From a virus (Duplodnaviria > Heunggongvirae > Uroviricota > Caudoviricetes), in the IMG/VR virus record IMGVR_UViG_3300009164_000055: 64,000 nt of DNA. One strand, written 5' to 3'. Made by a program: the position numbers and the translations under genes. Every line of letters starts with the position of its first letter. Position 1 is the first letter of the stretch. Under the pieces are notes generated by a model. It saw only the letters and a list, made by a program, of their open reading frames with translations. It ran no database searches and was not told where the DNA came from. This document shows positions 43,438 through 58,653 of this stretch, piece by piece.

Positions 43438-43647
43438 ATGGAACAAGAAGACAAGAATAGAAACACATTCTATGCCATACCATGTAGAATGGATGACGAA
43501 GATGATGATGAATATATGTTCTTCCTTACATTTAATACAAGGAATGAAAAGGAAGCATTGAGATTAGCTAGTTGTGTTTGTGGTGAAGAGTCTAAACGTA
43601 GCTTAGTGGTTATTACAGATAATGGTGATTATTACGATTGCTATTGA
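43438..43647 (+). CDS. small acidic, Cys-containing hypothetical protein
   Basis: 69 aa. Confidence 0.35.
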   Translation: MEQEDKNRNTFYAIPCRMDDEDDDEYMFFLTFNTRNEKEALRLASCVCGEESKRSLVVITDNGDYYDCY

Positions 43648-43659
43648 CTGATACATCAG

Positions 43660-43854
43660 TCATTTTTCTTTTGGAAATATTTCAGGATATCTTTCATACA
43701 TACAGTAATATAATACAGTGCCTCTAAGCTTGCTATAAAATGTTGTCTGTTCTTTACCGTCCATCATACACTCATACTTAGATGGATGTACGTGAACAAT
43801 CCTTGCCTTTAAATCTCCATTATAAAAAATGTAAGCAATCATCCACCAAGTCAT
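43660..43854 (-). CDS. small hypothetical protein, last gene of minus-strand operon
   Basis: ATGA overlap with cyclase stop. Confidence 0.35.
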   Translation of the reverse strand: MTWWMIAYIFYNGDLKARIVHVHPSKYECMMDGKEQTTFYSKLRGTVLYYCMYERYPEIFPKEK

Positions 43855-45905
43855 TTACTGGTAGCACGGTAAACACCGTCCCAATTATTTGGTGCAGACT
43901 TTTGCTCATTCATGCGATCTATCATAGCGTTGTAATAGCCAGAAAGTTCACCTTTCCACACTGGTCCCATTTCATAAGCCATAGCTAAAGCTCTACCCCA
44001 TTCACCAGTACGATAATAATTTAAAAATTTATTATGAGCTTTTTCTGCTGCACTATCTTTCTTTTCAACCACAGTATAAATCTTTACTGGTTCTGTCTTG
44101 CCCTTAACAGCAATGAGGTCCAGTTCAATTATTTGGTATACATCCCTAACCAATTCGGCAGTTTCTGGCCCAATAATGAGTTTGACTCCATAAGGCTTGG
44201 ATTGACCTTCCAAACGAGAAGCCAGATTAACGCCATCCCCCAAGCAAGTATAGTCAAAACGCTGATCACTGCCCATATTACCAACAACCACAGTGGCAGT
44301 GTTAATACCAAGACCCATCCCAAAAGCGGGTACACCTTCTCTTGTAACTTCATCATTAAATTCCTTTAGTGAGTTTAGCATCTGGAATGCAGTCTTCACA
44401 GCATCTAGAGCATGTTGTTCATTGTTTAGTGGTGCATTCCAGAATGCCATCTGAGCGTCACCGATATACTTATCAAGCGTTCCTTTGTTCTCTAGGATTG
44501 CCTTTGTCATGGCAGTCATGTAGCGATTCATGATCTTAGTTAAACCTTGAACGTCTCTTCCATAGTGTTCTGAGATTGTTGTGAAGCCACGAACGTCTGT
44601 GAACATGATAGAGAGCTTTTGCTCTGTTCCACCTAGCTGTAGCAAGTCTGGTTGCTTTTGCAACTGTGCAACAAGGTCTGGTGACAGATATGTACCAAAC
44701 TGTTTCTTGATTTGTTGCTTCTGAAGGAATTCTGAGATATAATTGACGATGTTGACATGTAGGTATATAAGAATCATTGATCCAATAATGAAACTTGAAT
44801 CAAGTAGAATTTTATAATGTTCCATCGCATAGTATGGTGCATATACAGCCGCTGCTAATAATCCACCTACCCAAACGAATGAGAAGCGTACACGTGAAAG
44901 ACCAATCACCAAAATGCCAAGGGTTAGGAAACCAGCCCATTCCACTAAAGGAACCCATGACGGAATGGAAACGCTTGATCCGTCAAGAAGGGTCTGCAAT
45001 AATGAAGCTTGAATATACTGTGGAGACTTTGCTCCCACAGGAGTTGGAACAGGGTTCTGAATTCCTTCAGCAGTTACGCCAAGAATTACAAACTTATTTT
45101 GAAGAGATGGTAATGGGGAACCAACATCATACTCCTGAAATGCCTTGTTCCAATTTACAAACACTCGACTATAAGGGTCTGTTGAAATTGTATCGTACTG
45201 AGGGACACGAACAGCCTCAACACCTGTCTCATTTATCTTTGCTTGATATGATGTATCACCAGCCGCATTTCGAAGCATCTCAAGAGCAAAAGATGGGTAA
45301 TACTCATTATTTGACATTGCCAAAAGAGGAATACGACGAACAACGCCGTCAACTTCTGGAAGGGTTGATGTTACGCCAATCCCAGAAGCTTTATTTTGGA
45401 CCGTAGCTACGTTATCAAGAATGCATTTATATTGTGGTAGATAATCGGTGGCTTTGCCGTCACCAACAACTGCTACACCTGTACGCTTTGTGTTTGAGTT
45501 ATCTCTAGCGCACTTTTCACTAGCAACTTGAGATAAGACTACAGGATTAGATAAAAGTGATTGTTGTAGATCGGTGTCATGATTGAAGCGATCTGGCTCA
45601 GGATATAGTATGGTAGTACCGACTAAGCCAGCACCGCTGCTGTAAGCGTCATTAATAACCTTAGCATAAACATCTCTTGAGAATGGATACTGCCCATACT
45701 TTTCCAAAGTTTTTTCGGAAATATTGAGCAATACAACATCAGTACTAACAACTTGCTGCTCTGCTACCATCAGGTTATCGTAGAAATTCAAGCGGGTTGA
45801 TTCGATAAGGCGAGGATCAGCTACCTTCAATGTGATCAGAAGAGAAAAAGTAAGTAAAGCTAACCATGGGGACAATAATGTCTTTTTAATTTTGTTGACT
45901 AACAA
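43851..45905 (-). CDS. CHASE2 sensor domain - class III adenylate/guanylate cyclase
   Basis: N-terminal signal/TM + large periplasmic CHASE2-like region + TM cluster, then FTDVRGFTTISEH...GDGVNLASRLE class III cyclase catalytic motifs. Confidence 0.75.
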   Translation of the reverse strand: MLVNKIKKTLLSPWLALLTFSLLITLKVADPRLIESTRLNFYDNLMVAEQQVVSTDVVLLNISEKTLEKYGQYPFSRDVYAKVINDAYSSGAGLVGTTILYPEPDRFNHDTDLQQSLLSNPVVLSQVASEKCARDNSNTKRTGVAVVGDGKATDYLPQYKCILDNVATVQNKASGIGVTSTLPEVDGVVRRIPLLAMSNNEYYPSFALEMLRNAAGDTSYQAKINETGVEAVRVPQYDTISTDPYSRVFVNWNKAFQEYDVGSPLPSLQNKFVILGVTAEGIQNPVPTPVGAKSPQYIQASLLQTLLDGSSVSIPSWVPLVEWAGFLTLGILVIGLSRVRFSFVWVGGLLAAAVYAPYYAMEHYKILLDSSFIIGSMILIYLHVNIVNYISEFLQKQQIKKQFGTYLSPDLVAQLQKQPDLLQLGGTEQKLSIMFTDVRGFTTISEHYGRDVQGLTKIMNRYMTAMTKAILENKGTLDKYIGDAQMAFWNAPLNNEQHALDAVKTAFQMLNSLKEFNDEVTREGVPAFGMGLGINTATVVVGNMGSDQRFDYTCLGDGVNLASRLEGQSKPYGVKLIIGPETAELVRDVYQIIELDLIAVKGKTEPVKIYTVVEKKDSAAEKAHNKFLNYYRTGEWGRALAMAYEMGPVWKGELSGYYNAMIDRMNEQKSAPNNWDGVYRATSK

Positions 45906-46947
45906 TTATGCTACTCCCGCCATCGTTTAATTGAATAATATTTGTTTTTCCATTATCAGTGAATGATATATTTAGGTTTGATGTTTTTTCTGTAAGGATC
46001 GATGCCGTATTGTTTTGAATTCTAGTAAACTGGATAGTAACCTGTTCAACAAATGTGTATATCTTTGTTGTGCTATCAAGACCAAAATTTGTACCAATCA
46101 ATCGAATATTATCTTTAGTAACTTCTCCACCTTCAGAATATGTTAAATCATCCTCAAAAAAGTTTACATCAAGTCTATTGATACTAAGATCATTGTCGTT
46201 GATATCATTCTTTTCAAGTTCATCGTTCTTTAGGAAGTCAATATCTAGTTCTGATAGATCAAGAATATTGGCTCTTTTATCAACTATATCCTGTTGTTTA
46301 ACCACATCTGGTGGAGACACGATCAACATATTGTCGATCATGCTTAGGTCTAGGTTGAGAATGACAGGTTTTGTTGGTGGTGTATCAGCCGTCAGAACAA
46401 TAGTTGATTGAAAGGCTTTATCTAAAATAACAGTCCCTGCACTATTCGACACAGTAATCTGCCCAACATGACCGTTTTCTTCTGGTAGAAGAATAAACAG
46501 GCTCTTACCCATTTCATCTACGGTTGTTGTGAAATCTGTTCCTCTAACCGCTATGGTAGCAGTAGGAGTTTTAAGGTTGATACCTTTCTTACCCATGGAA
46601 CCAGTTACGAACCTAGCAGTACCTGAAGCAAATCGAAGATTCATCTTTCCTTTACTAGCATCGCCATCATAAACAAAATCATCGATCACAAGCTTTGATT
46701 GTTCTGTGAGTTTAACCTTAGTGTTGTCAACAAATGTTATTTCGATGCGACCATTACCAGTACGCACGTTATCCATTTTTTGCACAGGTAAGCGAGGCTG
46801 TGTAGGAATTTTTTGTGTTTTCCTAACAACCTCGCTTGGTCCTCTTAGCTCAGTAACACTGCCAATATTAGCAGTTGCCGCTATTGCATTGTGTGATGTT
46901 AATAATACCACCAGTAGCAGTAGTATTAAGTTTAATCGTATCCACAT
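45886..46947 (-). CDS. FecR-domain periplasmic protein
   Basis: signal peptide; FecR-like beta domain (GSVTELRGPSEV..., MGKSLFILLPEENGHVG); start overlaps curlin gene by ~80 nt so start codon uncertain. Confidence 0.5.
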   Translation of the reverse strand: MWIRLNLILLLLVVLLTSHNAIAATANIGSVTELRGPSEVVRKTQKIPTQPRLPVQKMDNVRTGNGRIEITFVDNTKVKLTEQSKLVIDDFVYDGDASKGKMNLRFASGTARFVTGSMGKKGINLKTPTATIAVRGTDFTTTVDEMGKSLFILLPEENGHVGQITVSNSAGTVILDKAFQSTIVLTADTPPTKPVILNLDLSMIDNMLIVSPPDVVKQQDIVDKRANILDLSELDIDFLKNDELEKNDINDNDLSINRLDVNFFEDDLTYSEGGEVTKDNIRLIGTNFGLDSTTKIYTFVEQVTIQFTRIQNNTASILTEKTSNLNISFTDNGKTNIIQLNDGGSSIIVSQQN

Positions 46948-47572
46948 TCAATGTACTCTTCTGATCGATATTAATAGTATTCAATGAACCTAGTACGTTC
47001 ATATCGATGTTCTTACCAGCATAACCAGTTTGAGTAGTTGTAATGGTATTTTGATCACCAGTTACGTTTATTGTATTGGTAACATCATCTGTATTGATAT
47101 TTGCCAGTAATGTATTATAGTCTCCTGAGATTACATAATTCAGAAGAGCATTTGTTGCTGATGAATAATCACCATGATTAAATGTTGTTTTATTGTTATC
47201 ACCAGTAATTGTCATATTTTGGGTTGTACCTGCAACAGAAGCACTACTGCCTGTGTTGAAGATATTTTCGTTAGAATTACCAGTAATATTAAGGTTATAA
47301 TTCACACCAGATGCATTTGTTATACGTCCAGTAAGAATGTTGTTTGAACCAGTTTGAGTAATAGTGATATCTTGTGAGTTTCCTTCAAGATTAAATCTAT
47401 TATTTTCAGAACCGATCTTATTATCTTGGCCTGTTTGCGTTACTGTTATCTTACTTGTTTCGCCTACTTGCTCAATATAGATTGCGTTTGGATTTGCAAT
47501 CGCTGTGGATGAAATCATGACCATCAAGAGTGATAACATCTTGATTTTCTTTAACATATCTTTTAACTCCAA
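46868..47572 (-). CDS. curlin-repeat (CsgA/CsgB-like) secreted protein
   Basis: signal peptide then imperfect repeats TVTQTGQDNKIGS / ITITQTGSNNILTG / MTITGDNNKTT / INVTGDQNTITTTQTGYAGKN resembling S-x5-Q-x-G-x-G-N curlin repeats. Confidence 0.5.
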   Translation of the reverse strand: MELKDMLKKIKMLSLLMVMISSTAIANPNAIYIEQVGETSKITVTQTGQDNKIGSENNRFNLEGNSQDITITQTGSNNILTGRITNASGVNYNLNITGNSNENIFNTGSSASVAGTTQNMTITGDNNKTTFNHGDYSSATNALLNYVISGDYNTLLANINTDDVTNTINVTGDQNTITTTQTGYAGKNIDMNVLGSLNTINIDQKSTLNVDTIKLNTTATGGIINITQCNSGNC

Positions 47573-48330
47573 TATCCCTTAATTCTGCCTTGTTTGATTA
47601 GTTCGACTACTGCCGCTTCAATTGTCATCTTAACCGCAATCGTGTTTGCTTCATTTTCGGTTATACCTACTTCTGTTTCAACAAGTTTGGTTCCTACATC
47701 AATAAATTTAAATAATGTAAAGTCTGTACCAGTTGAAAGGATTGTTTTTGAAACCTGTACGTTCATAATGACTTCGCCAGTGTTTGTTGAAACCGCCCTT
47801 AGTGCTACTGTTACTTGGTCTTTGCGATATTTTGTGCTTGAACCGATACCAAGATATCTGGCTCCAGCACCACCAGTAACAATATTGGTATCGTAACCAA
47901 TAATGCCACCTTGAATCATTATTCCTGCAAAGACTAAAGGTTCAAGCTTATTAGCGCCTTCACCTTGGTATTCTTCACGAGTTTGACGAACAATTTGACG
48001 TTCTTTAGTAAGATCGTCTATTCTTTGACGTTCGACAACTCTAAACCACTTTCCACGTCCAGCATTTTTCAATGCATCAATTAATAAACTTGTTCCGCCT
48101 TGAGTTACGGAAGTTGAAAATGTCGCTACACCATCTTTATCTTTTCTTTGACCTGTAAGATCAGGAAAGTCATACACAGCTACTACTGCTGGCATTTGTG
48201 GTGGTCTAATATCTAACAGTGGCTTATATGCCACACTATCAACAACAGGTAAATTTCTGTTGAAGTCATGTAGAGCAGGGGTTGCACAACCACCTAGCAA
48301 TAGTAATAATGCTAAACCTATGCTTTTCAT
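47563..48330 (-). CDS. csgG: curli production assembly/transport lipoprotein CsgG
   Basis: lipobox LLGGC; long blocks align with E. coli CsgG (VAVYDFPDLTGQ..., FSTSV...LLIDALK, MIQGGIIGYDTNIVTGGAGARYLGIGSSTKY...SKTILS...FKFID). Confidence 0.85.
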   Translation of the reverse strand: MKSIGLALLLLLGGCATPALHDFNRNLPVVDSVAYKPLLDIRPPQMPAVVAVYDFPDLTGQRKDKDGVATFSTSVTQGGTSLLIDALKNAGRGKWFRVVERQRIDDLTKERQIVRQTREEYQGEGANKLEPLVFAGIMIQGGIIGYDTNIVTGGAGARYLGIGSSTKYRKDQVTVALRAVSTNTGEVIMNVQVSKTILSTGTDFTLFKFIDVGTKLVETEVGITENEANTIAVKMTIEAAVVELIKQGRIKGYWS

Positions 48331-48854
48331 TAGAATTTAAATGACCCTGCTGTTGGAATGGTGATTGAAGTTGATGTACCATCTGGCTGTGTTATTGTCA
48401 GTGTTATACCATTTAAGTCTTTTTGAAATGCAACGGTATTTCCATCAAGCTCAAAGGTTCCTGAATCCTGTGCGTTTGGACCGAAAAGACTATCTGTCAG
48501 TTGTTTGGCTAGTTGAGAATATATACGAGACTGCAAATTGGTCATGAATTTGTTCATGATTGAATTTTGCTCAGCTTGAACTGCTGCTTTCAAATCTGAT
48601 TCAATTTTGTCTTGAATTGTTTTACGTCTGGTTGCTTCTTGATTTTCAATTGTTAACCAATGTGCAGAAGTGCCAACTCCACTAAATGAAGGGCTTTTGA
48701 ATTGCTGAACAATTTCTGTGGAATGTGCAGGACTACTTAGAAACAGTAGGCTTGCTAGTATCAGGCTCTTTCTTAGCAACTTCTTCTTCCTTTTTCTTTT
48801 TATTATTTTCAGAAGAAAGATCGAATTCAAGTTTGAAGATTTTGATGATTTCAA
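48330..48854 (-). CDS. csgF: CsgF-like curli assembly protein
   Basis: signal peptide then EIVQQFKSPSFSG (cf. CsgF TMTFQFRNPNFGG) and C-terminal ITLTITQPDGTSTSITIP (cf. LNVTDRKTGQTSTIQVSG). Confidence 0.55.
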   Translation of the reverse strand: MKSSKSSNLNSIFLLKIIKRKRKKKLLRKSLILASLLFLSSPAHSTEIVQQFKSPSFSGVGTSAHWLTIENQEATRRKTIQDKIESDLKAAVQAEQNSIMNKFMTNLQSRIYSQLAKQLTDSLFGPNAQDSGTFELDGNTVAFQKDLNGITLTITQPDGTSTSITIPTAGSFKF

Positions 48855-49114
48855 TTTTTAGGCTTATAATCACCGTGATCTTCCTTTATCTGTAGTACTA
48901 CATTCACCTTCTGGTTCAACCGAATGAGGTCATTGTCCAACATGCGAACACGATCAATCAGTGCGATTAAAATAACATTGGTTTCGCCAATCAACGGCAT
49001 TAATTTATCTGTAACAAACTTATAGATGAAGAATACGAAATATCCCATACCGACTGCGGCAACAATTGGGAATCCATATTGCTTCACAAATTGAGCAATT
49101 AGATCGGGTGACAT
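48851..49114 (-). CDS. small single-TM protein (paralog of next gene)
   Basis: shares D.I....GFPI.AA...G.F.....I...L.....I..L..RV....D.IR pattern with 49114..49401. Confidence 0.4.
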   Translation of the reverse strand: MSPDLIAQFVKQYGFPIVAAVGMGYFVFFIYKFVTDKLMPLIGETNVILIALIDRVRMLDNDLIRLNQKVNVVLQIKEDHGDYKPKN

Positions 49115-49401
49115 TAGTCTCTCCTAGCATCGTTCTTCCCGTCTGCTCGTGCAATTCTTTCAAGATCAGGCTTAAGACCTAATGCAGAACTTACTACGGC
49201 ATCAACACGGATAATATCATGGTTCATTGTTTTGACTCGATTATCGAGTCCCATAATAATACCCTGCATTCCTTTGATGGCTTTGAGGACGCTTTCTAGG
49301 ATGTAGTTAATAACAAAGTACACGAAGACACCACCCAACAACGCTGCTGCGATGGGGAACCCTACGTCACCAATCAGTTTGAATATAACATCGTATCCCA
49401 T
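49114..49401 (-). CDS. small single-TM protein, first gene of minus-strand operon
   Basis: ORF-track TTG start (49554) trimmed to ATG giving paralog-length product. Confidence 0.35.
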   Translation of the reverse strand: MGYDVIFKLIGDVGFPIAAALLGGVFVYFVINYILESVLKAIKGMQGIIMGLDNRVKTMNHDIIRVDAVVSSALGLKPDLERIARADGKNDARRD

Positions 49402-49673
49402 GCTTATATTTATGCAAATGGCATCTTTGTATGTAGCATACGAAAAAAAAAAAGTTGACAATCCATTTTTTTCTGCTATTTGCGTCTCAACTTGTATAAA
49501 TAAATGTAAGAAACTATTTACTAAGAAAGACTTAAAGTGCAACTCACCTATCAACCCATTATGAAAGATATGAAACCAGCCAGTTCATTCGAACATGGCC
49601 GCTTTGCGTCTGTCAATAATGGTGCGTGGACAGATGAGATGTAACTGAAGTACGACATAAGTATAACTTGTCA

Positions 49674-49716: not shown

Positions 49717-49744
49717 TTGACACTGATGGAACGAAACGTATAAT
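49717..49744 (+). promoter_or_regulatory. sigma70 consensus promoter TTGACA-N16-TATAAT driving tRNA array
   Basis: 12 nt upstream of first tRNA. Confidence 0.55.
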
Positions 49745-49756: not shown

Positions 49757-49832
49757 GCCGCTATAGCTCAGTTGGTAGAGCGTCTGCCTTGTAAGCAGAA
49801 TGTCTGGGGTTCGATTCCTCATGGCGGCACCA
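49757..49832 (+). tRNA. tRNA-Thr (anticodon TGT)
   Basis: cloverleaf by eye; GCTCAGTTGGTAGAGC D-arm, GGTTCGATTCC T-arm, CCA encoded. Confidence 0.7.
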
Positions 49833-49839
49833 GAATTTC

Positions 49840-49915
49840 GGGGACTTAGCTCAGTTGGGAGAGCGATAGCTTTGCAAGCTATAGGTCAAGGGTTCGATCC
49901 CCTTAGTCTCCACCA
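49840..49915 (+). tRNA. tRNA-Ala (TGC)
   Basis: acceptor GGGGACT/AGTCTCC incl. G3-U70, anticodon loop TTTGCAA. Confidence 0.7.
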
Positions 49916-49985
49916 AGTTAGGGGTTGACGTTTAATAAGCACGGATGTAATGTAATTGAATGTTGGCTTCGACAAAATAGATTAT

Positions 49986-50064
49986 AGCGGGATAGAGGAG
50001 TATGGCCGTCCTCGCCAGTTTCATAAGCTGGAAATCGTCGGTTCAAATCCGGCTCCCGCAACCA
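49986..50064 (+). tRNA. initiator tRNA-fMet (CAT)
   Basis: 3' half ATCGTCGGTTCAAATCCGGCTCCCGCAACCA nearly identical to E. coli tRNA-fMet; 1-72 mismatch (A·A). Confidence 0.65.
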
Positions 50065-50103
50065 ATCTATGCTCTTTGACATTGTTAGAAACGTAATATT
50101 TTA

Positions 50104-50180
50104 CGGGGATTAGCGCAGTCCGGTAGCGCACCTGCTTTGGGAGCAGGGGGTCGTAGGTTCGAATCCTACATTCCCGACCA
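50104..50180 (+). tRNA. tRNA-Pro (TGG)
   Basis: anticodon loop TTTGGGA, T-arm GTAGGTTCGAATCCTAC. Confidence 0.7.
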
Positions 50181-50310
50181 TTAAGTTTTCTTGTTTTTCC
50201 TTTAAAAAACAAGTGGTGGATCGCAGAATTAGATGCTAATTCGGCCCCAAATGTGGTGTATGCCAAAGACCATTGAAAGAGATGGGCAGCGAATGGGAGC
50301 TTCGCAGTAT

Positions 50311-50386
50311 GGTGGCTGTAGCTCAGAGGCAGAGCGTTGGGTTGTGAACCCAAATGTCGGGATTTCGAAACTCCTCAGTCACCCCA
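50311..50386 (+). tRNA. tRNA-His (GTG) with encoded G-1
   Basis: G-1 opposite C73, anticodon loop TTGTGAA; T-arm GGGATTTCGAAACTCCT imperfect. Confidence 0.55.
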
Positions 50387-50387
50387 T

Positions 50388-50465
50388 GTCGGTGTAGCTT
50401 AGCCCGGTCTAAAGCAACGGTCTCCAAAACCGTGATCGTGAGTTCGAATCTCACCACCTTCGCCA
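50388..50465 (+). tRNA. tRNA-Trp (CCA)
   Basis: anticodon arm ACGGTCTCCAAAACCGT identical to E. coli tRNA-Trp; acceptor stem shows two mismatches as read. Confidence 0.5.
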
Positions 50466-50487
50466 TTTTTTAAACAATAGGTGATTT

Positions 50488-50925
50488 ATGATTGAAGAAG
50501 CAAAACAGGCAATCTTGGCATCAAGTCAAAGTTCTTCTGTTTACATCGGTGCTGACAGCATCCGTTACAAAAAAGACGGTAAGTGGTATGCTAAGTATTC
50601 GACTGTGATTGTTCTTCACATAGATTCTAAGCGGGGCTGCAAACTATTCCATAACAGCGTTGATTTGCCAGACTATGGCAACTTAAAACAACGCTTGCTA
50701 ACAGAAGTTGGATATGCTATTGAAGCAGCAATCGAGATTATTGATGTGGTTGGTAAACGTCATTTGGAAGTTCATATTGACGTTAATCCAAATCCAAAGC
50801 ATAAATCTTCTGTTGCAATCAAGGAAGCCTTGGGTTATGTTAAGGGTTCACTTGGTATAGATGCTATTCCAAAGCCAAATGGATGGGCAGCTACTCATGC
50901 TGCTGACCATATGGCAAGACACTAA
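50488..50925 (+). CDS. RNase H-like fold protein (YkuK/DUF458-like) embedded in tRNA array
   Basis: VYIGADS...KYSTVIVLH pattern reminiscent of DUF458; 145 aa. Confidence 0.35.
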   Translation: MIEEAKQAILASSQSSSVYIGADSIRYKKDGKWYAKYSTVIVLHIDSKRGCKLFHNSVDLPDYGNLKQRLLTEVGYAIEAAIEIIDVVGKRHLEVHIDVNPNPKHKSSVAIKEALGYVKGSLGIDAIPKPNGWAATHAADHMARH

Positions 50926-50930
50926 ATAAT

Positions 50931-51005
50931 GCCTGATTAGCTCAGCGGTAGAGCAAATCCTTTACACGGATAAGGTCGGCGGTTCAATCCCGTCATCAGG
51001 TACCA
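50931..51005 (+). tRNA. tRNA-Val (TAC)
   Basis: close to E. coli tRNA-Val1 3' half (GGTCGGCGGTTCAATCCCGTCATCA). Confidence 0.7.
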
Positions 51006-51013
51006 AAGTTCAT

Positions 51014-51088
51014 TCCCTGATAGCTCAATGGTAGAGCTTTCGGCTGTTAACCGGACGGTTGTAGGTTCGAGTCCTACTCAGGGAGCCA
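51014..51088 (+). tRNA. tRNA-Asn (GTT)
   Basis: anticodon loop CTGTTAA; acceptor TCCCTGA/TCAGGGA. Confidence 0.7.
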
Positions 51089-51444
51089 GAGTTTAGTGAG
51101 TGTTATAGTTAGACGGCACTGTGTGTAAACTAATCGATTGTTGTAACACAGTAAAAGATGACGGTGCAAGTACGCAACATAGATAAACCATCTGCTCTCT
51201 ATCAATTTATAACGTACCCTAAGAACGCAAGTTCAATAGCAGAGGCGCTGATAAATTCTGCATAATGCTCCATTGTTGGGTTGGAGGCTCACTAATTCAA
51301 GTTTACTAGGCGGGTGCAGTACACCGTAAGTCCTCAGAAGTTGGGGAATGGCAAAGTGCTCAACGGCTATACAACTACTATTGTATAGCAACTGTAGTAG
51401 CAGTGTTGATGTGGTGCAAGTCCATACGTTCCCCTCATTTTAAT

Positions 51445-51520
51445 GGATCGTTAGCTCAATCGGGAGAGCACCGCACTGTCCATGCGGAGGTAAGGGGATC
51501 GAAACCCCTACGATTCGCCA
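51445..51520 (+). tRNA. tRNA-Asp (GTC), non-canonical T-loop ATCGAAA
   Basis: anticodon loop CTGTCCA; T-arm AGGGG-ATCGAAA-CCCCT (A at position 54). Confidence 0.55.
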
Positions 51521-51525
51521 TCAAT

Positions 51526-51600
51526 GGCCCTGTCGTCTAGTGGCTAGGACGCTAGGTTTTCAACCTAGAGAAGCGGGATCGAAACCCGTCAGGGCTACCA
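51526..51600 (+). tRNA. tRNA-Glu (TTC), 3-bp D-stem, T-loop ATCGAAA
   Basis: anticodon loop TTTTCAA. Confidence 0.55.
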
Positions 51601-51622
51601 TTTTTTAAGGTTGACAAACGAT

Positions 51623-51793
51623 ATGGATAACGATAATAAAGAAGCCGTATTGCTTAGTTTAAAGGAACGTAAAACTGCATGTTGGGCAATGGCTAAAGTG
51701 TTTCTCTTGAATGAAGATGCACACGGCGTTCACGACATGGGAGTTGAAATTCAAGCTTTAGACAGAGCAATCAAAGAGATTGAAAGTCTTTAA
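51623..51793 (+). CDS. doubtful small ORF (56 aa) without RBS, overlapping a TTGACA-N17-TAATAA promoter-like site
   Basis: ORF track 51611..51793 trimmed to ATG; may be non-coding. Confidence 0.2.
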   Translation: MDNDNKEAVLLSLKERKTACWAMAKVFLLNEDAHGVHDMGVEIQALDRAIKEIESL

Positions 51794-51800
51794 AGTTTAG

Positions 51801-51883
51801 GGTGACTAAAGTCGATAGTTTCGGCAATCGGTCTGTAAAACCGATCTTTCGGGGAGTGGAGCGTAACCACAGTCACCCACCAA
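51801..51883 (+). pseudogene. tRNA-Tyr-like degenerate element (acceptor GGTGACT/AGTCACC, anticodon arm with CTGTAAA loop, no T-arm)
   Basis: anticodon loop identical to E. coli tRNA-Tyr; 3' tail ...AGTCACCCACCA; lacks recognisable T-loop. Confidence 0.3.
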
Positions 51884-51910
51884 GTTTTTTGAGATAGTGA
51901 AAAATAGTTG

Positions 51911-51939
51911 TTGATATAAAGACAACGAATCACTATATT
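51911..51939 (+). promoter_or_regulatory. early-type promoter TTGATA-N17(…CGAATCAC)-TATATT in front of the large ORF-free region
   Basis: shares CGAATCAC spacer element with P1-P6 family. Confidence 0.4.
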
Positions 51940-51945
51940 GAGTTC

Positions 51946-53090
51946 AACAAAGAGATAAATGGCGGTGTAGCGTCAATAGGGTAAGGTCGGGTAACTGATC
52001 CCAAAGCAAGTTCTCCTACAGAACTGCGCCAGTGATGGTCCATCTATGCAAGCCTGAACAAACCCGAAAGGGTCCGTCAGTAGAATGGCGGTAGGCATTA
52101 AGTGCTGGTCGAAGGTCCGAAAGGATAGGTTACAGAGCCACATCGGTGAGTAGCTAAATGGGGTGGTACCCATACCAAGTCAAACCAACAGTACGATTGC
52201 TGAATGTTAACAGGTAGTTATTGAGTCTGACCCTGCAAGGAAAGGCAAGATAGCAGTCACAAAGTTGAAGGGATGACCGGAGACTTGAAGGATCGTTGAG
52301 TAGTTCGCAAGACGAAAGACAGGAGGTGTGCAGTATTTTGTATCCCAAAAGGATATGAAGCAGCAGTAGCAGCACATCTTGGTAGGTTTCTTACTTTGCA
52401 CAAACTTTAGGTGTCTGATCGCAAATCAAACAAAAAAAAGCAAAGTCTGCTACGGTACTATGTGAAAGGTGCTTAATACCACACTCGAAAGGGAATGTGG
52501 TTCATGGATACTCGCAAGGTTGAAGTGATTGTTCGGATTGAAAACGTAAGAGCTTAGCGGCTCCTAACTGCTCGTAAGGTAGACGGAAGATTGAGGGATG
52601 AATAGCATAGTATGACAGGTCAAACGCCAGACCTTAAAAAAGGCAGCACTGAGAGATACTAGATGACTGTAAAAAGCTCTAGTGGATAACGAGTTAACAA
52701 TCCTCGCAAGGGACTTGGTACGGCTCAAAGGCTCTCATATGAAGCAGTAATCTCATGCTTCTCAAAGACTTTTTAGATGAACACATTCTATAAGACTTAC
52801 GGCCTTCGGGTACGCTTGAGTGTGTTCTTCTAAAAAGTTTTGATGAACACACCAAACAGGACGCTGGCTCGTTGAAGTATTTGGGGGAAGTAGCTGCCCT
52901 TGGGTATGGAGAGATGAGTGTGTTCTTCTAAACTTTTTAAATCTACTCTGCTGGGGGTAGCAGTGTATGGACGCATACACTATGTGAGGATAGGGCCATC
53001 TTACCCTCACTGACATAACCCTAGCAATGGCTTAGGACAGGAAGCACCTGACTCCGAAATTCGCTCATGAGCAGAGTAGATTTAAATAGT
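51946..53090 (+). ncRNA. candidate large structured non-coding RNA (~1.15 kb, GNRA-tetraloop-rich, GC-enriched; GOLLD/ROOL-class or novel)
   Basis: no + strand ORF >=60 aa across 1.3 kb in an otherwise tightly packed genome; many C(n)GAAAG(n) / CGCAAG hairpins; 17-bp long-range inverted repeat 52936-52952 / 53069-53085; flanked by tRNAs. Confidence 0.45.
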
Positions 53091-53094
53091 TTAT

Positions 53095-53169
53095 GCCAGT
53101 ATAGCTCAGCGGTAGAGTACGGGACTCATATTCCCTTGGTCGCTAGTTCGATCCTAGCTACTGGTACCA
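53095..53169 (+). tRNA. tRNA with CAT anticodon, tRNA-Ile2 (lysidine) type more likely than elongator Met
   Basis: ACTCATATTCCCTTGGTCGCTAGTTCGATCC resembles E. coli tRNA-Ile2 (TTGGTC variable loop). Confidence 0.55.
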
Positions 53170-53220
53170 ATTTGTGGATTATTTTACAACTATATACAAT
53201 GTCTTTATATAAAGGAAATT

Positions 53221-53784
53221 ATGATGAATAATAACAATTTGCCACATCATTTGGGTGGACACGAAAACATGACACATGTTGATGATGGTGCTCTTCAATT
53301 TTTGATTGAACGCTATGATGCTAAGTCATTTCTTGATGTTGGCTGTGGTCCTGGTGGAATGGTTGACCTATCACTTGAAAAAGGATTGATTGCTCATGGT
53401 GTTGATGGAGATTTTACAGTAAATCATAAAAATCCAAATAACATTACCATTCATGATTATGTTACTGGTCCTGTAAAGCTCAATAGAAATTATGATATTG
53501 GTTGGTCTTGTGAATTTCTAGAGCATGTTGAAGAAGTTTATATGGCTAATTATATGGATACCTTCAAGTATTGTAAAGTTATTGCAGTCACACATGCTTT
53601 TCCAAATCAACAGGGCCATCATCATGTTAACTTGAAAAGTCCAGAATATTGGATTGAAAAGTTTTCTTTTTATGGTTTTTCACAGGATATTGAAGCAACT
53701 CAGTTGATCCGTGAAAAGTCAACAATGGGCGATGAATACATTCGTTTGAGCGGTCTTGTATTTTTGAATTCAAATTTTAGTTAA
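53221..53784 (+). CDS. class I SAM-dependent methyltransferase
   Basis: motif I FLDVGCGPGGM, motif II-like ITIHDYV. Confidence 0.55.
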   Translation: MMNNNNLPHHLGGHENMTHVDDGALQFLIERYDAKSFLDVGCGPGGMVDLSLEKGLIAHGVDGDFTVNHKNPNNITIHDYVTGPVKLNRNYDIGWSCEFLEHVEEVYMANYMDTFKYCKVIAVTHAFPNQQGHHHVNLKSPEYWIEKFSFYGFSQDIEATQLIREKSTMGDEYIRLSGLVFLNSNFS

Positions 53785-53789
53785 ATATT

Positions 53790-53864
53790 GCACCATTAGC
53801 TCAGTAGTAGAGCATTCGACTGATAATCGAAAGGTGACAGGGGCGGTACCTGTATGGTGTACCA
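53790..53864 (+). tRNA. tRNA-Ile (GAT), unusual T-loop GGCGGTA
   Basis: anticodon arm TTCGA-CTGATAA-TCGAA; T-arm ACAGG-GGCGGTA-CCTGT. Confidence 0.5.
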
Positions 53865-53908
53865 AAAATTACTAATACTTCTAGTAAATGGAAGTTTCTA
53901 TAATTTGT

Positions 53909-53985
53909 GGCCGTGTAGTCCAACTGGCAGAGACACTAGTTTTAGGTACTAGGTGTTGGGAGTTCGAATCTCTCCACGGCTACCA
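53909..53985 (+). tRNA. class-I tRNA with anticodon TAG (Leu-decoding anticodon but short 5-nt variable loop)
   Basis: anticodon arm CTAGT-TTTAGGT-ACTAG; variable loop GTGTT; canonical T-arm. Confidence 0.45.
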
Positions 53986-53990
53986 TTTAT

Positions 53991-54067
53991 ATCCTTGTAG
54001 CTCAACTGGAGAGAGCACTTGATTACGAATCAAGAGGTTACAGGTTCGAATCCTGTCAAGGATGCCA
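53991..54067 (+). tRNA. tRNA-Arg (ACG)
   Basis: anticodon loop TTACGAA, perfect acceptor ATCCTTG/CAAGGAT. Confidence 0.7.
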
Positions 54068-54108
54068 ATCCTTATAAATAGTAAAAACTATTTCGTTGAG
54101 GACAATAC

Positions 54109-54813
54109 ATGAAACCTTTTAAATCATTTATCGAAGAATCATTGATTAAACAACTTACGTTGAAGTATCATGGTAAGCTTAATCCAAAGATTTGGAAGAA
54201 AGATCAACTGAAGGATGGTATCGCTGAACTTTTGATTAAGAAAGCATATGAGTTTGCCGTCTATTCTGGTGTGAGCAAAGGTCGTATTAAAGATATTGTC
54301 ATCACTGGCGGTAATGTCAATTACAACTATACCAAGTTCTCTGATATCGATGTTCATTTAATGTGTGATGTTGACGGCTTGAATAGCGATAAGCTTTATG
54401 AAAAGAAAGTTTCATGGACAGCTAGTCACAAGAATTTGAAGGTTGCTGGATATCCATTAGAGTTTTATGCTGCTAATAACAAAGATCATTTTCCAAAGGG
54501 ACAGGGTGTATATTCTATCCTTGAAAATAAATGGTTGATCATACCAAAACATCTTGATCATTTAGATATTCTGCATGATCCAAAAGTGATTGACAAGATC
54601 AATTACTATGTTAAGTATATCAGAACACTTCTAAAAAGTGGAACAGAAACAGAAATCAAGGCTTTTAAAGATAAGCTACATACAATGCGTGGTGCTGGAT
54701 TGCATCATGGTGGTGAATTTTCGGTTGAGAATGTTCTTTATAAAGACCTTCGTAATCGTGGTCTGCTTGATAAGTTGAATGCAAAAATTCACCATACAGG
54801 TGAAGAAGTTTAA
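54109..54813 (+). CDS. nucleotidyltransferase-fold protein with CTS-like N-terminus (MKPFKSFIEES)
   Basis: GGNVNYNYTKFSDIDVHL fits hG[GS]x9-13Dh[DE]h pol-beta NTase motif. Confidence 0.45.
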   Translation: MKPFKSFIEESLIKQLTLKYHGKLNPKIWKKDQLKDGIAELLIKKAYEFAVYSGVSKGRIKDIVITGGNVNYNYTKFSDIDVHLMCDVDGLNSDKLYEKKVSWTASHKNLKVAGYPLEFYAANNKDHFPKGQGVYSILENKWLIIPKHLDHLDILHDPKVIDKINYYVKYIRTLLKSGTETEIKAFKDKLHTMRGAGLHHGGEFSVENVLYKDLRNRGLLDKLNAKIHHTGEEV

Positions 54814-54818
54814 AGTTT

Positions 54819-54890
54819 GCGGGTAAGCATAAGGTATGCAGTCGGTCTTCCAAACCGTACATAGAGTGAGTTCGATTCTCATTATCCGCT
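54819..54890 (+). pseudogene. tRNA-Gly(TCC)-like element with truncated D-loop (possible tRNA pseudogene)
   Basis: acceptor GCGGGTA/TATCCGC, anticodon loop CTTCCAA, T-arm GTGAG-TTCGATT-CTCAT, but 5-nt D-loop and no CCA. Confidence 0.3.
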
Positions 54891-54955
54891 CATAGAGTTC
54901 CAGACCACCAACACCTTTTTTAGGAAAATCTCATTCATTAGAAACTAAGAAAAAA

Positions 54956-55099
54956 ATGAGTGAATCTAAAAAAGGAAAATTTACTGGTGAAAAAAATTCA
55001 CAATATGGTACAATGTGGATAACCAATGGAAATATAAATAAAAAAGTAAAATGTGATGATATCATCCCTGATGGATGGTATAAAGGAAGATTGAAATAA
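54956..55099 (+). CDS. homing-endonuclease C-terminal DNA-binding module remnant (47 aa)
   Basis: TGEKNSQYGTMWITNG...IPDGWYKGR resembles repeated G.K.S.E...G..W..NG / P.GW..GR modules of T4 Seg/Tev-type endonucleases; no catalytic domain. Confidence 0.35.
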   Translation: MSESKKGKFTGEKNSQYGTMWITNGNINKKVKCDDIIPDGWYKGRLK

Positions 55100-55192
55100 T
55101 AGTTTGATGTGAATACAAAGCGTTCGTCGCTGTCGCAATATCACACACATTCGTACCAATACGTGCGGTACAGATTTATTATGAGGGAACAT

Positions 55193-56443: not shown

Positions 56444-56447
56444 GTGT

Positions 56448-56521
56448 TGCCCTTTCCTCTAATGGTAAGAGAGCGGACTTTGAATCCGTCAATTGGGGTT
56501 CGAGTCCCTGAAGGGCATCCA
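56448..56521 (+). tRNA. tRNA-Gln (TTG)
   Basis: anticodon loop CTTTGAA; 3-bp D-stem; CCA encoded. Confidence 0.6.
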
Positions 56522-56549
56522 AATTTTATTTTATAATGGAGAAAAAACT

Positions 56550-56786
56550 ATGAGTGACAATATTTCTGTAAATGAACTACGTCAGTACATTGAACGTATT
56601 GAGCGTCTTGAAGAAGAACTTGATGGTATCAAGGGTGATCGTAAGGACGTATATGCTGAAGTTAAGGCTGTAGGCTTTGACGTTAAGGCAGTACGCAAGA
56701 TTGTTCGTATTCGCAAGATGGACCCAACACAGCGCCAGATTGAAGAAGCGGTAGAAGATACATATCGTACTGCATTAGGTCTATAA
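56550..56786 (+). CDS. hypothetical coiled-coil protein
   Basis: ORF track 56493 trimmed (5' part overlaps tRNA-Gln); SD GGAG. Confidence 0.4.
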   Translation: MSDNISVNELRQYIERIERLEEELDGIKGDRKDVYAEVKAVGFDVKAVRKIVRIRKMDPTQRQIEEAVEDTYRTALGL

Positions 56787-56801
56787 TAAAAGGATATATT
56801 T

Positions 56802-57032
56802 ATGGCAAAAACACTTGTAAATTTTCTTGTTGAAGAAGCTGATCTTCGTCGTTTTGATAACATAGCAGAAATTTTAGGAAGAACTCGCACATCAATTTTG
56901 AGAGAATACATAAATGACTTTTCTGCTGAACAGTCTATTATGATAGCACAGAAAAAGCTTAAACTACAGGAATTAGATCGTATTCTTGCAGAATATAAAT
57001 CGGTACTCACGCCTTCACAAGAACAAGACTAG
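56802..57032 (+). CDS. ribbon-helix-helix (CopG/Arc-like) DNA-binding protein
   Basis: KTLVNFLVEEADLRRFDNIAEILGRTRTSILREYIN fits beta-strand + two helices RHH pattern. Confidence 0.45.
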   Translation: MAKTLVNFLVEEADLRRFDNIAEILGRTRTSILREYINDFSAEQSIMIAQKKLKLQELDRILAEYKSVLTPSQEQD

Positions 57033-58645: not shown

Positions 58646-58653
58646 TAATTTAT

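What the first reader, a model, noticed from the sequence alone, without database searches (positions are those of the whole stretch)
46868..49401. Curli-type amyloid secretion set (CsgG, CsgF-like, curlin-repeat protein) encoded by a T4-like phage
The ORF at 47563-48330 matches E. coli CsgG in long blocks; a repeat of the window-wide mis-assignment check found these blocks colinear along the protein. The next gene starts with EIVQQFKSPSFSG, like the CsgF N-terminus, and ends with a TSTSITIP block. The third gene carries a signal peptide and TQTG(Q/S)(D/N)N curlin-like repeats. Two paralogous single-TM mini-proteins lead the operon. All start/stops overlap (ATGA, shared codons), so this is one transcription unit and the only minus-strand island in the window. 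A complete outer-membrane amyloid export channel plus candidate substrate in a lytic T4-like genome is not part of the known T4 gene repertoire. It could remodel the host surface for superinfection exclusion, aggregation or decoy adsorption, or export a phage-encoded amyloid.
Basis: partly seen in the sequence, partly recalled or inferred. Interest (0 to 1): 0.85.

Follow-up and report, generated by a model that had tools for sequence, protein, structure and literature searches.

The report
Phage curli-secretion and cAMP-signalling gene module

Summary

The minus-strand unit runs from 49401 down to 43660. It also encodes a conserved 46-aa micro-protein, a secreted FecR-domain protein and a CHASE2 adenylate cyclase.

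The same gene order is annotated in Pelagibacter phage HTVC008M and Methylophilales phage Melnitz, and was analysed in papers from 2020 and 2022. It is therefore not new, and it is not an assembly chimera.

Four points go beyond those papers:
- The five-gene core (CsgF to cyclase) is a resident chromosomal operon in Caulobacteraceae and Henriciella genomes.
- The three small genes are a phage-only, highly conserved cassette that persists in natural variants that lost the core.
- T4-type late-promoter motifs precede the cassette, and precede the core where the two are separate.
- The published "histidine kinase" label for the small proteins is unsupported.

Most likely function: late-infection export of a curlin-like fibre, coupled to periplasm-sensing cAMP synthesis. 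This is inferred, not shown.

The parts
49407..49414 (-). CATAAATA, a T4-type late-promoter-like motif ending 5 nt before the miniA ATG
   Evidence: Read from the sequence. [TC]ATAAATA occurs within 60 nt upstream of miniA in 51 of 82 distinct homologous loci, against 0.47% of random 60-nt windows from the same loci. In 27 loci it ends exactly 5 nt before the ATG. Promoter function is inferred, not shown.
49114..49401 (-). miniA, a 95-aa single-helix membrane protein and first gene of the phage-only small-gene cassette
   Evidence: phrog_18771 E 6.5e-29. 2656 homologues, the best 120 at 73-98% identity. AF2 models one continuous helix, residues 3-74, pLDDT 79. No Pfam family at significance even when hits up to E = 10 were listed.
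48851..49114 (-). miniB, an 87-aa paralogue of miniA
   Evidence: phrog_18771 E 5.3e-31. Cross-hits miniA at 30-35% identity. Its start overlaps the miniA stop as TAATG.
48733..48873 (-). Conserved 46-aa micro-ORF (GTG start) overlapping the 3' end of miniB and the 5' end of CsgF; third gene of the cassette
   Evidence: Called in independent assemblies. The conserved core is M.I.LKIEILKvFsLEF.LSS followed by a Lys/Glu-rich tail. It moves with miniA/B when the cassette is relocated (L007, L010, L012). It is kept when the core is deleted (L120, L122). HTVC008M gp013 lies at the same position, but no sequence match to it was found.
48330..48779 (-). CsgF homologue, 149 aa from the TTG at 48779 (the longest ORF would start at 48854); has a signal peptide
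   Evidence: Pfam PF10614 E 9.1e-19, profile positions 7-132 of 132. A family profile hits E. coli CsgF 6l7a at E 0.005. That alignment places FeFknPsFsG on FqFrnPnFgG.
47563..48330 (-). CsgG homologue, 255 aa, a lipoprotein (LLGGC)
   Evidence: Pfam PF03783 E 3.3e-52. Solved E. coli CsgG E 2e-47 over residues 6-254. 47-50% identical to the CsgG of HTVC008M and Melnitz.
46868..47557 (-). Curlin-like repeat protein, 229 aa with a signal peptide; candidate secreted fibre subunit
45886..46947 (-). Secreted FecR-domain protein, 353 aa. Its signal peptide is encoded in the 80 nt that overlap the end of the curlin-like gene
   Evidence: Pfam PF04773 E 3.2e-15; phrog_37870 E 2e-63. The N-terminal extension aligns from residues 1-12 in distant phage and bacterial homologues.
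43851..45905 (-). Membrane adenylate cyclase with a periplasmic CHASE2 sensor, 684 aa
   Evidence: Pfam CHASE2 E 5e-37 and Guanylate_cyc E 2e-19. The best solved relatives are adenylate cyclases, for example P. aeruginosa CyaB 3r5g at E 6e-34. The motifs FTDVRGFT, KYIGD and DYTCLGDGVNLASRLE are aligned to it.
43660..43854 (-). 64-aa ORF whose start overlaps the cyclase stop (ATGA); last gene on the strand
   Evidence: It is conserved at 91% in the closest relatives L112-L115 and at 77% in L155, and was found in no other locus. It has no family hit. Its membership of the module is doubtful.

Best explanation
This is a copy of the phage-borne type VIII (curli-type) secretion plus cAMP-signalling module already described in pelagiphages and in Methylophilales phage Melnitz. 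It sits in an uncultured T4-like phage of a different clade.

Shown here:
- The module has two separable parts.
- The five-gene core is CsgF, CsgG, a curlin-like beta-solenoid protein, a secreted FecR-domain protein and a CHASE2 class III adenylate cyclase. The same core exists as a resident chromosomal operon in some Caulobacterales.
- The phage-only cassette is miniA, miniB and a 46-aa micro-protein.

Inferred mechanism:
- Both parts are transcribed from T4-type late promoters.
- The Sec system exports CsgG, CsgF, the curlin-like protein and the FecR-like protein.
- CsgG, as a lipoprotein, forms the outer-membrane channel, and CsgF plugs into it through its conserved N-terminal F-x-N-P-x-F-G motif.
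- The curlin-like subunit passes through unfolded and polymerises on the surface of the infected cell.
- In parallel, the FecR-like periplasmic protein and the CHASE2 domain sense an envelope or external cue and set cAMP output in the cytoplasm.
- The small inner-membrane proteins adapt the system to a host that lacks it, or tie it to late phage functions.

The ecological pay-off (aggregation, exclusion of other phages) is unknown.
For: Identity:
- CsgG and CsgF pass Pfam thresholds and match solved structures.
- The cyclase keeps its catalytic motifs when aligned to CyaB.

Same module in known phages: HTVC008M gp011-gp019 and Melnitz genes 97-104 share the gene order at 29-51% amino-acid identity.

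Conservation: CsgF-CsgG-repeat-FecR-cyclase is contiguous in every sufficiently long locus of the 27 found with CsgG, and in two contigs of about 300 kb. 57 of 80 loci found with miniA carry the core.

Bacterial operon: the Caulobacteraceae loci L032 and L033 and the Henriciella locus L034 carry the five-gene core without the cassette. For L032 and L034, where flanks were scanned, these are housekeeping genes (TonB-dependent receptor, acyl-CoA dehydrogenase, TetR). The GC content of the module is close to that of its flanks in L032 and L034; in L033 it matches the right flank but lies about 10 points below the left.

Late-promoter motif: it lies upstream of miniA in 62% of distinct loci against 0.5% in the background. 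It also lies directly upstream of CsgF in six loci where the core stands apart from the cassette.

Not a chimera.
Against: - No experiment shows fibres, secretion or cAMP. Buchholz et al. saw no clumping of Melnitz-infected cultures.
- No CsgE gate and no second (CsgB-like) subunit is present in this window.
- In the CsgG constriction only the Phe is kept; the positions of E. coli Tyr51 and Asn55 differ.
- Natural variants that lost the core but kept the cassette show that the core is dispensable.
- The promoter assignment rests on a motif only. In this window the motif ends 5 nt before the ATG, which would imply a nearly leaderless mRNA.
Confidence: 0.6

Rival explanations
1. The CsgG/CsgF pore has been repurposed for lysis control. 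It would act as a pinholin-like or secretin-like channel whose opening late in infection depolarises or permeabilises the envelope. The small membrane proteins would act like holin or antiholin partners (the idea of Buchholz et al. 2022).
For: - Late-promoter motifs precede the unit.
- The cassette encodes small one-helix membrane proteins of holin or antiholin size. miniB gives a weak, partial hit to a holin PHROG, E 0.0013 over 19 residues.
- No clumping was seen in Melnitz cultures.
Against: - The same five-gene core is a chromosomal operon in Caulobacterales, where lysis is not at issue.
- A curlin-like substrate and the CsgF plug motif are conserved across all phage clades. A bare pore would not need either.
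- Close relatives of this phage have lost the core, which is unexpected for a core lysis function.
- CsgG is an outer-membrane lipoprotein, not an inner-membrane holin.
Confidence: 0.12
2. An ungated CsgG channel (there is no CsgE) serves as an uptake route for nutrients or cofactors during infection. FecR would point to iron or siderophore import (suggested in PMC7029224 and PMC9599517).
For: No CsgE-like gene lies in the module. The FecR Pfam domain is present.
Against: - The FecR-domain protein has a cleavable signal peptide and gave no family hit other than the FecR domain.
- It is always paired with a CHASE2 cyclase. In Sinorhizobium meliloti a FecR-domain extracytoplasmic protein belongs to the regulon of CHASE2 cyclases and has no link to iron.
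- CsgF and the curlin-like gene would be superfluous for uptake.
- Late expression leaves little time for nutrient uptake to pay off.
Confidence: 0.07
3. The repeat protein is a monomeric beta-helix surface protein (an adhesin or a decoy) rather than a polymerising amyloid subunit. The system would then be a secretion device for a folded-on-arrival surface protein.
For: - The protein models as a closed nine-coil solenoid.
- A conserved C-terminal Cys-x4-5-Cys motif occurs in this clade.
- There is only one curlin-like gene here and no nucleator paralogue.
Against: Solved CsgA fibres are built from the same kind of solenoid monomers stacked end to end. Sequence-profile similarity is specific to curlins. 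CsgF, which anchors and nucleates fibres in E. coli, is conserved.
Confidence: 0.15
4. Assembly chimera: bacterial DNA joined to a phage contig.
For: None found. The island is on the opposite strand from the rest of the window.
Against: - Both junctions (cyclase-orf64-orf69-GP88 on one side, the tRNA/RNaseH-like region on the other) recur in two independent assemblies from different samples, and the cyclase-side junction in four.
- The island's GC content is 38.3%, against 39.2% for the rest of the window.
- The same module sits in two cultured phage genomes.
Confidence: 0.01

Closest known systems
T8SS/curli module of Pelagibacter myophage HTVC008M (gp011-gp019), Methylophilales phage Melnitz (genes 97-104) and HTVC023P-type pelagipodophages (Zaragoza-Solas 2020; Buchholz 2022; PMC9599517, 2022)
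   Same: Same gene order: two small membrane proteins, (micro-ORF), CsgF, CsgG, curlin-repeat protein, FecR-domain protein, adenylate cyclase. All proteins are homologous at 29-51% identity. The genome context is T4-like.
   Different: - This window lacks the second curlin-repeat gene that lies between FecR and the cyclase in HTVC008M and Melnitz.
- Its CsgG, FecR and cyclase group with a separate phage clade next to Caulobacterales sequences in neighbour-joining trees.
- Relatives occur on contigs of 170-360 kb.
- Sample names and a GOLLD RNA hint at fresh water, but this was not verified.
- The published 'histidine kinase' label for the small proteins is not supported here.
Chromosomal CsgF-CsgG-curlin-like-FecR-CHASE2 cyclase operon of Caulobacteraceae and Henriciella genomes (found here: L032, L033, L034)
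   Same: The five core genes are in the same order. Identity to the window is 60-65% for CsgG, 42-54% for the cyclase and 43-49% for FecR.
   Different: These loci have no miniA/miniB/micro-ORF cassette and no TATAAATA motif upstream. Their GC content is 50-53% and, where scanned (L032, L034), their flanks are housekeeping genes. They carry one long or two curlin-like genes. PMC9599517 stated that FecR and the cyclase are not part of bacterial T8SS operons.
Escherichia coli / Salmonella curli system (csgBAC-csgDEFG)
   Same: CsgG lipoprotein channel, CsgF with the N-terminal plug motif, and a secreted Gln/Asn/Gly-ladder beta-solenoid subunit.
   Different: The module has no CsgE, CsgC, CsgD or distinct CsgB, and the subunit has no Gly-rich N22 targeting segment. 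The repeats are about 25 aa rather than 22 aa. The module is linked to a cyclase and a FecR-domain protein, and is encoded by a lytic phage.
Sinorhizobium meliloti CHASE2 adenylate cyclases CyaD1/CyaD2/CyaK with the FecR-domain protein SMc02177
   Same: An alphaproteobacterial membrane cyclase with a CHASE2 sensor is functionally tied to an exported FecR-domain protein. Removing CHASE2 makes the cyclase constitutive.
   Different: No secretion channel or amyloid subunit is linked to it. It works through the Clr regulator in symbiosis. That cyaD1 and smc02177 are neighbouring genes is from my memory and was not checked here.
Caulobacter holdfast anchor HfaA/HfaB/HfaD
   Same: It is a CsgG-family lipoprotein (HfaB) with curlin-like partners in Caulobacterales. 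The window's CsgG hits the HfaB model weakly, E 3.5e-7 and 30 bits.
   Different: The score is far below the HfaB cut-off of 300 bits, there is no CsgF in that system, and it anchors a polysaccharide adhesin.

Membership tests
CsgG (PF03783, curli outer-membrane channel) | CsgG domain above the curated threshold, colinear with solved CsgG | tested here: met
   177 bits against a cut-off of 20.8. E 2e-47 to 3x2r/4uv3 over residues 6-254.
CsgG (PF03783, curli outer-membrane channel) | Lipoprotein signal peptide with a lipobox cysteine | tested here: met
   MKSIGLALLLLLGGC, read from the sequence. Gly14 and Cys15 are nearly invariant in alignment A2.
CsgG (PF03783, curli outer-membrane channel) | Constriction-loop residues (E. 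coli Tyr51, Asn55, Phe56; numbering from my memory) | tested here: inconclusive
   In the alignment, E. coli ...kpyp-asnfst... pairs with ...kdkdgvatfst.... Phe is kept, Asn becomes Thr, Tyr is not kept, and there is a one-residue insertion. In relatives the Phe position is F, L or I.
CsgG (PF03783, curli outer-membrane channel) | Nonameric 36-strand barrel in the outer membrane | not testable with these tools
   Needs multimer modelling or an experiment.
CsgF (PF10614) | CsgF domain above the curated threshold | tested here: met
   68.4 bits against a cut-off of 25.8, profile positions 7-132 of 132.
CsgF (PF10614) | N-terminal F-x-F-(R/K)-N-P-x-F-G-G segment that inserts into the CsgG barrel | tested here: met
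   The mature N-terminus is TEIVQQFKSPSFSG. F27, P30 and F32 are invariant in alignment A4. The profile aligns this segment to that of E. coli CsgF 6l7a, E 0.005. A single-sequence search did not find CsgF.
Curlin subunit (CsgA/CsgB, Pfam Curlin_rpt PF07012) | Curlin_rpt hit on the protein itself | tested here: not met
   No Pfam hit at E 0.1 or below. There is only an NCBIfam CsgA hit at 19 bits against a cut-off of 160.
Curlin subunit (CsgA/CsgB, Pfam Curlin_rpt PF07012) | Homology to curlins at family level | tested here: met
   22 of 42 aligned homologues hit Curlin_rpt, best E 6e-8. The family profile hits Pontibacter CsgA 8c50 at E 1.7e-9 and E. coli CsgA 8enq at E 0.006.
Curlin subunit (CsgA/CsgB, Pfam Curlin_rpt PF07012) | Two-strand-per-coil beta-solenoid with a Gln/Asn/Gly ladder | tested here: met
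Curlin subunit (CsgA/CsgB, Pfam Curlin_rpt PF07012) | Forms extracellular amyloid fibres dependent on CsgG and CsgF | not testable with these tools
   Needs expression and fibre assays.
Canonical enterobacterial curli operon set | CsgE, CsgC/CsgH, CsgD and a separate CsgB nucleator present | tested here: not met
   None of the nine ORFs of the island hits these families in Pfam, PHROGs or NCBIfam. The rest of the genome is not in the window.
Pelagiphage-type T8SS-FecR-cyclase module | Gene order small membrane protein(s) - CsgF - CsgG - curlin-like - FecR - (second curlin-like) - adenylate cyclase, homologous gene by gene | tested here: met
   tblastn of every window protein against HTVC008M and Melnitz gives colinear hits, matching their annotations. 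The second curlin-like gene is absent here.
CHASE2-class III adenylate cyclase | CHASE2 sensor plus a cyclase domain with metal-binding Asp residues, a substrate Lys and Thr, and transition-state Asn and Arg | tested here: met
   Pfam hits for both domains. The alignment to CyaB 3r5g shows FTDVRGFT / DKYIGD / DYTCLGDGVNLASRLE opposite FSDIRGFT / DKFVGD / DYTIIGREVNLASRLE. The assignment of roles to these residues is from my knowledge of class III cyclases.
Histidine kinase (published label for the small proteins) | HisKA/DHp domain with a phospho-accepting His, and a HATPase_c domain | tested here: not met
   The proteins are 87-95 aa, with no kinase-related Pfam hit even when hits up to E = 10 were listed. 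AF2 models a single long helix. The only His in the conserved helix of miniA (NHD) is Asn in miniB.
Holin | Significant match to a holin family; lysis-cassette context | tested here: inconclusive
   The only hit is phrog_4898 at E 0.0013 over residues 6-24 of miniB. No endolysin lies next to it.

The most novel reading that the evidence does not exclude
The secretion genes and the cyclase are one functional device native to Caulobacterales. T4-like phages have put it under late promoters and coupled it to an ultra-conserved, phage-only trio of small membrane proteins. On this reading the module is a late-infection envelope sensor-effector rather than a simple adhesin system. cAMP output, set by a periplasmic cue read through FecR/CHASE2, would be tied to amyloid export and, through the small proteins, to the timing of late events such as lysis or exclusion. 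The small cassette, which persists without the core, would be a new class of phage membrane regulator.
Probability: 0.15. Interest if true: 0.6.

Novelty: new member of a known kind. Interest (0 to 1): 0.3.

Why it matters
The headline, a lytic phage carrying an amyloid secretion system, has been in the literature since 2013-2022, so the finding itself adds another, divergent example.

Four results bear on the open question of what the system does:
1. A bacterial chromosomal counterpart exists with the cyclase and the FecR-domain protein inside the operon. This gives a culturable-lineage context in which to study the core, and it contradicts the published statement that these genes are not linked to T8SS in bacteria.
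2. The likely late timing narrows the range of plausible roles.
3. The three small genes are a separate, far more conserved unit, so they deserve their own study rather than the label "histidine kinase".
4. Natural core-less variants provide ready-made comparisons for fitness tests.

Tried and rejected
- The afdb50 library was unavailable.
- A single-sequence search of CsgF against the PDB returned only designed repeat proteins, which are spurious. A profile was needed.
- Pfam, PHROGs and NCBIfam gave nothing for orf64, the micro-ORF or the C-terminal half of the FecR protein.
- The weak Pfam HPTransfase hit (E 0.06) and the NCBIfam ChpT hit on the repeat protein were dismissed as chance.
- The weak YvrJ hit (E 0.07, 12 residues) on miniA was noted but is not significant.
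- Chimera hypothesis: rejected.
- A second minus-strand gene at 35423-35917: rejected as spurious.
- Recent phage-to-bacterium insertion as the explanation for L032-L034: not favoured, because the module's GC content is close to that of the bacterial flanks and no phage genes are nearby. However, the direction of transfer cannot be settled from unsupported neighbour-joining trees.
- An o-spanin reading of the micro-ORF was rejected, because it has no signal peptide and no lipobox cysteine.

Full report
WHAT IS THERE

The window is phage DNA with T4-type replication genes: NrdA/B, a gp61-like primase, an RNA ligase and a Dda-like helicase. Almost everything is on the plus strand. The one exception is a block from 49401 down to 43660. 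The only other long minus-strand ORF (35423-35917) is an artefact lying opposite real plus-strand ORFs.

In transcription order the block encodes:

| Gene | Coordinates | Product |
|---|---|---|
| miniA | 49401-49114 | 95 aa |
| miniB | 49114-48851 | 87 aa |
| micro-ORF | 48873-48733 | 46 aa |
| CsgF | 48779-48330 | 149 aa |
| CsgG | 48330-47563 | 255 aa |
| repeat protein | 47557-46868 | 229 aa |
| FecR-domain protein | 46947-45886 | 353 aa |
| CHASE2 adenylate cyclase | 45905-43851 | 684 aa |
| orf64 | 43854-43660 | 64 aa |

Junctions are TAATG, ATGA, a 5-nt gap, or overlaps of 20-80 nt.

CHECK OF THE ASSIGNMENTS

- **CsgG.** It scores 177 bits on Pfam PF03783. It aligns end to end with solved E. 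coli CsgG at E 2e-47 and has a lipobox (LLGGC). In the constriction loop only the Phe is conserved.
- **CsgF.** It scores 68 bits on PF10614 across the whole model. A profile of phage and bacterial homologues finds E. coli CsgF (6l7a) and aligns the N-terminal F-x-F-K-N-P-S-F-S-G segment with the one that plugs into the CsgG barrel. This argues against the suggestion in PMC9004378 that the phage CsgF no longer pairs with CsgG.
- **Cyclase.** It has CHASE2 and class III cyclase domains, and its catalytic motifs align with P. aeruginosa CyaB.
- **FecR-domain protein.** It has a convincing signal peptide, MWIRLNLILLLLVVLLTSHNAIA. The peptide is encoded in an alternative frame over the last 80 nt of the repeat gene. 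That N-terminus aligns in distant homologues, so the long form is probably real.

IT IS ALREADY KNOWN

A DNA search found only Pelagibacter phage HTVC008M. Its record annotates the same order: three small hypothetical proteins, CsgF, CsgG, "curlin-associated protein", two hypothetical proteins and an adenylate cyclase. Methylophilales phage Melnitz is annotated likewise, including "FecR domain protein".

Three papers treat the cluster:

- Zaragoza-Solas et al. 2020 call it a curli operon of unclear function and propose "sibling capture".
- Buchholz et al. 2022 propose a role in lysis timing.
- PMC9599517 (2022) describes the full module as "histidine kinase(s)", CsgF, CsgG, CsgA/B, FecR, a second CsgA/B and the cyclase. 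It finds this module in pelagiphage podoviruses and myoviruses, shows it is transcribed in the ocean, and infers an alphaproteobacterial origin.

The claim that this lies outside the known repertoire of T4-like phages therefore does not stand. The window's proteins are only 29-51% identical to those of the cultured phages, so it is a new and fairly distant member.

NOT A CHIMERA

- Both junctions recur in two independently assembled contigs from different samples, and the cyclase-side junction in four. On one side they carry the cyclase, orf64, the 69-aa ORF and the GP88-domain gene. On the other they carry the RNaseH-like gene of the tRNA region. Identity to the window is 90-99%.
- The island's GC content is 38.3%, against 39.2% for the rest of the window.

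WHAT THE COMPARISON ADDS

1. **Conservation of the core.** The five genes from CsgF to the cyclase stay together in every sufficiently long locus of the 27 IMG/VR loci found with CsgG and in two contigs of about 300 kb.

2. **A bacterial counterpart.** A scan of one genome per bacterial species found about 70 alphaproteobacterial and other loci with CsgF-CsgG alone. It also found three loci with the whole five-gene core: two Caulobacteraceae genomes and one Henriciella genome.
   - These three have 60-65% CsgG identity and 42-54% cyclase identity to the window, and no small-gene cassette.
   - Where scanned (L032, L034), their flanks hold a TonB-dependent receptor, acyl-CoA dehydrogenase, TetR and amidohydrolase genes.
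   - Their GC content of 50-53% is close to that of their flanks.
   - FecR and the cyclase therefore do belong to a bacterial T8SS operon in at least one lineage, contrary.
   - In rough neighbour-joining trees these bacterial sequences sit beside the window's phage clade, apart from HTVC008M and Melnitz. The direction of transfer is open.
   - Five further "bacterial" hits carry the phage cassette and are probably phage contigs binned into MAGs.

3. **The small genes are a unit of their own.**
   - miniA is far more conserved than its neighbours. It is 85-96% identical in loci where CsgG is 46-70% identical, and the best 120 of 2656 homologues are at 73% or above. Its C-terminal tail is almost invariant.
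   - The 46-aa ORF has a conserved core and follows miniB wherever the cassette goes.
   - The cassette lies directly upstream of the core in this window. In other phages it lies downstream on the other strand, or between the FecR gene and the cyclase.
   - Among cultured phages it occurs only where CsgG does.
   - Among 51 IMG/VR loci with at least 7.5 kb of sequence downstream of miniA, four lack the core entirely. Two more keep only CsgF and cyclase stubs.
   - One core-less locus, L122, is 98% identical in miniA and 92% in GP88 to this window. L120, an ENA contig found separately, keeps a 37-aa cyclase remnant.
   - The core can therefore be lost while the cassette stays.

4. **The "histidine kinase" label is unsupported.** The small proteins are 87-95 residues long and have no kinase-related Pfam hit even when hits up to E = 10 were listed. 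They model as one long helix.

5. **Late-promoter motifs.**
   - The T4 late-promoter word TATAAATA (or CATAAATA) lies within 60 nt upstream of miniA in 51 of 82 distinct loci. The background rate in random windows of the same loci is 0.5%.
   - It ends 5 nt before the ATG in 27 of those loci, including this window at 49407-49414.
   - Where the core is detached from the cassette, the same word sits about 25-30 nt upstream of the CsgF start in six loci. Four others have a one-mismatch version, and the bacterial loci have none.
   - In the window TATAAATA occurs ten times, all on the plus strand, against 4.6 expected.
   - None of the three papers reports a promoter for the module.
   - That the word marks late promoters in T4-like phages is established knowledge. 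Its function here is inferred.

MECHANISM

Shown here are the identities and domain content of the proteins, the export signals, the conservation of the CsgF plug motif and of the cyclase catalytic motifs, the two-part architecture, and the bacterial counterpart.

The rest is inferred:

- Late in infection the Sec system exports CsgG, CsgF, the curlin-like subunit and the FecR-like protein.
- CsgG and CsgF form the outer-membrane channel, and the subunit is exported and polymerises on the surface.
- The FecR-like protein and the CHASE2 domain set cyclase activity from the periplasmic side. In S. meliloti, deleting CHASE2 makes such a cyclase constitutive, and a FecR-domain exported protein belongs to the same circuit.
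- Reading FecR as an iron regulator seems unwarranted. The protein gave no family hit beyond the FecR domain itself and is always paired with the cyclase.

I give this mechanism about 0.6. The identity of the module as a member of the published kind I put at about 0.95.

The main rivals are:

- a lysis-timing pore (0.12);
- a monomeric surface beta-helix rather than an amyloid (0.15);
- an uptake channel (0.07).

The bacterial operon, the conserved substrate and the core-less phage variants argue against a pore-only or lysis-essential role. The late timing and the lack of observed clumping keep the lysis-timing idea alive.

VERDICT

The finding is a new member of a known kind, so its interest is modest. 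What may be worth following up are the Caulobacterales operon, the separable and highly conserved small-gene cassette, and the late-promoter signal. No paper in the searchable library mentions both CsgG and CHASE2.

Noticed in passing
window 52323-52759 (+): Full-length GOLLD RNA (Rfam RF02032), 203 bits against a gathering score of 150, lying inside the tRNA array.
   Followed up: no
window 49757-63750 (+); promoter-like site at 49717-49744: A large tRNA array: 18 tRNAs by ARAGORN, 20 Rfam tRNA hits. It begins 13 nt after a perfect sigma-70 consensus (TTGACA, 16 nt, TATAAT; 12 of 12), and so diverges from the minus-strand module. An RNaseH-like gene (50488-50925) is interspersed.
   Followed up: partly
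window 46868-46947 (-): There is an 80-nt overlap between the curlin-like gene and the FecR-domain gene. The whole signal peptide of the FecR-domain protein is encoded in the alternative frame of the repeat protein's C-terminus. Overlaps of 70-77 nt recur in L003, L004 and L017. Automatic gene calls in close relatives chose a shorter 332-aa form.
   Followed up: partly
L122 (IMGVR_UViG_3300009154_000082), L120, L127, L130, L136, L151, L153: These are natural variants that keep miniA, miniB and the micro-ORF but have lost CsgF through the cyclase. L120 retains a 37-aa cyclase remnant, and L151 and L153 retain CsgF and cyclase stubs. L122 is a close relative of this window (miniA 98%, GP88 92%).
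   Followed up: partly
L116 (357-kb contig, ENA ERZ19043865): A mosaic module. Its cassette (85% and 78%) and cyclase (69%) are of the window type. Its CsgF, CsgG and repeat protein are only 29-46% identical and group with HTVC008M and Melnitz. This suggests recombination inside the module.
   Followed up: no
L035, L036, L039, L040, L042 (genome contigs): These contigs are filed in MAGs of Saprospirales, Sphingobacteriales, Rhodobacteraceae and Synechococcus. They carry the phage-only cassette together with the module and are probably phage contigs mis-binned into bacterial genomes. Two of them are 121 kb and 142 kb long.
   Followed up: no
window, ten sites on the + strand (e.g. 10889, 41985, 54073, 55033): TATAAATA occurs 10 times, all on the plus strand, against 4.6 expected. 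Several sites lie 35-45 nt upstream of ORF starts, for example ahead of the GP88-domain gene at 42032. This fits T4-type late promoters being in use in this phage.
   Followed up: partly
window 46868-46900 (-), C-terminus of the repeat protein: A Cys-x4-5-Cys motif (QCNSGNC) at the very C-terminus is conserved in the window's clade of curlin-like proteins. It is absent from the marine HTVC008M/Melnitz-like group, whose proteins end in ITQSD.
   Followed up: no
window 43645-43662: A palindromic terminator-like hairpin lies exactly where the minus-strand unit (orf64 stop at 43660) meets the converging plus-strand 69-aa ORF (stop at 43647).
   Followed up: no
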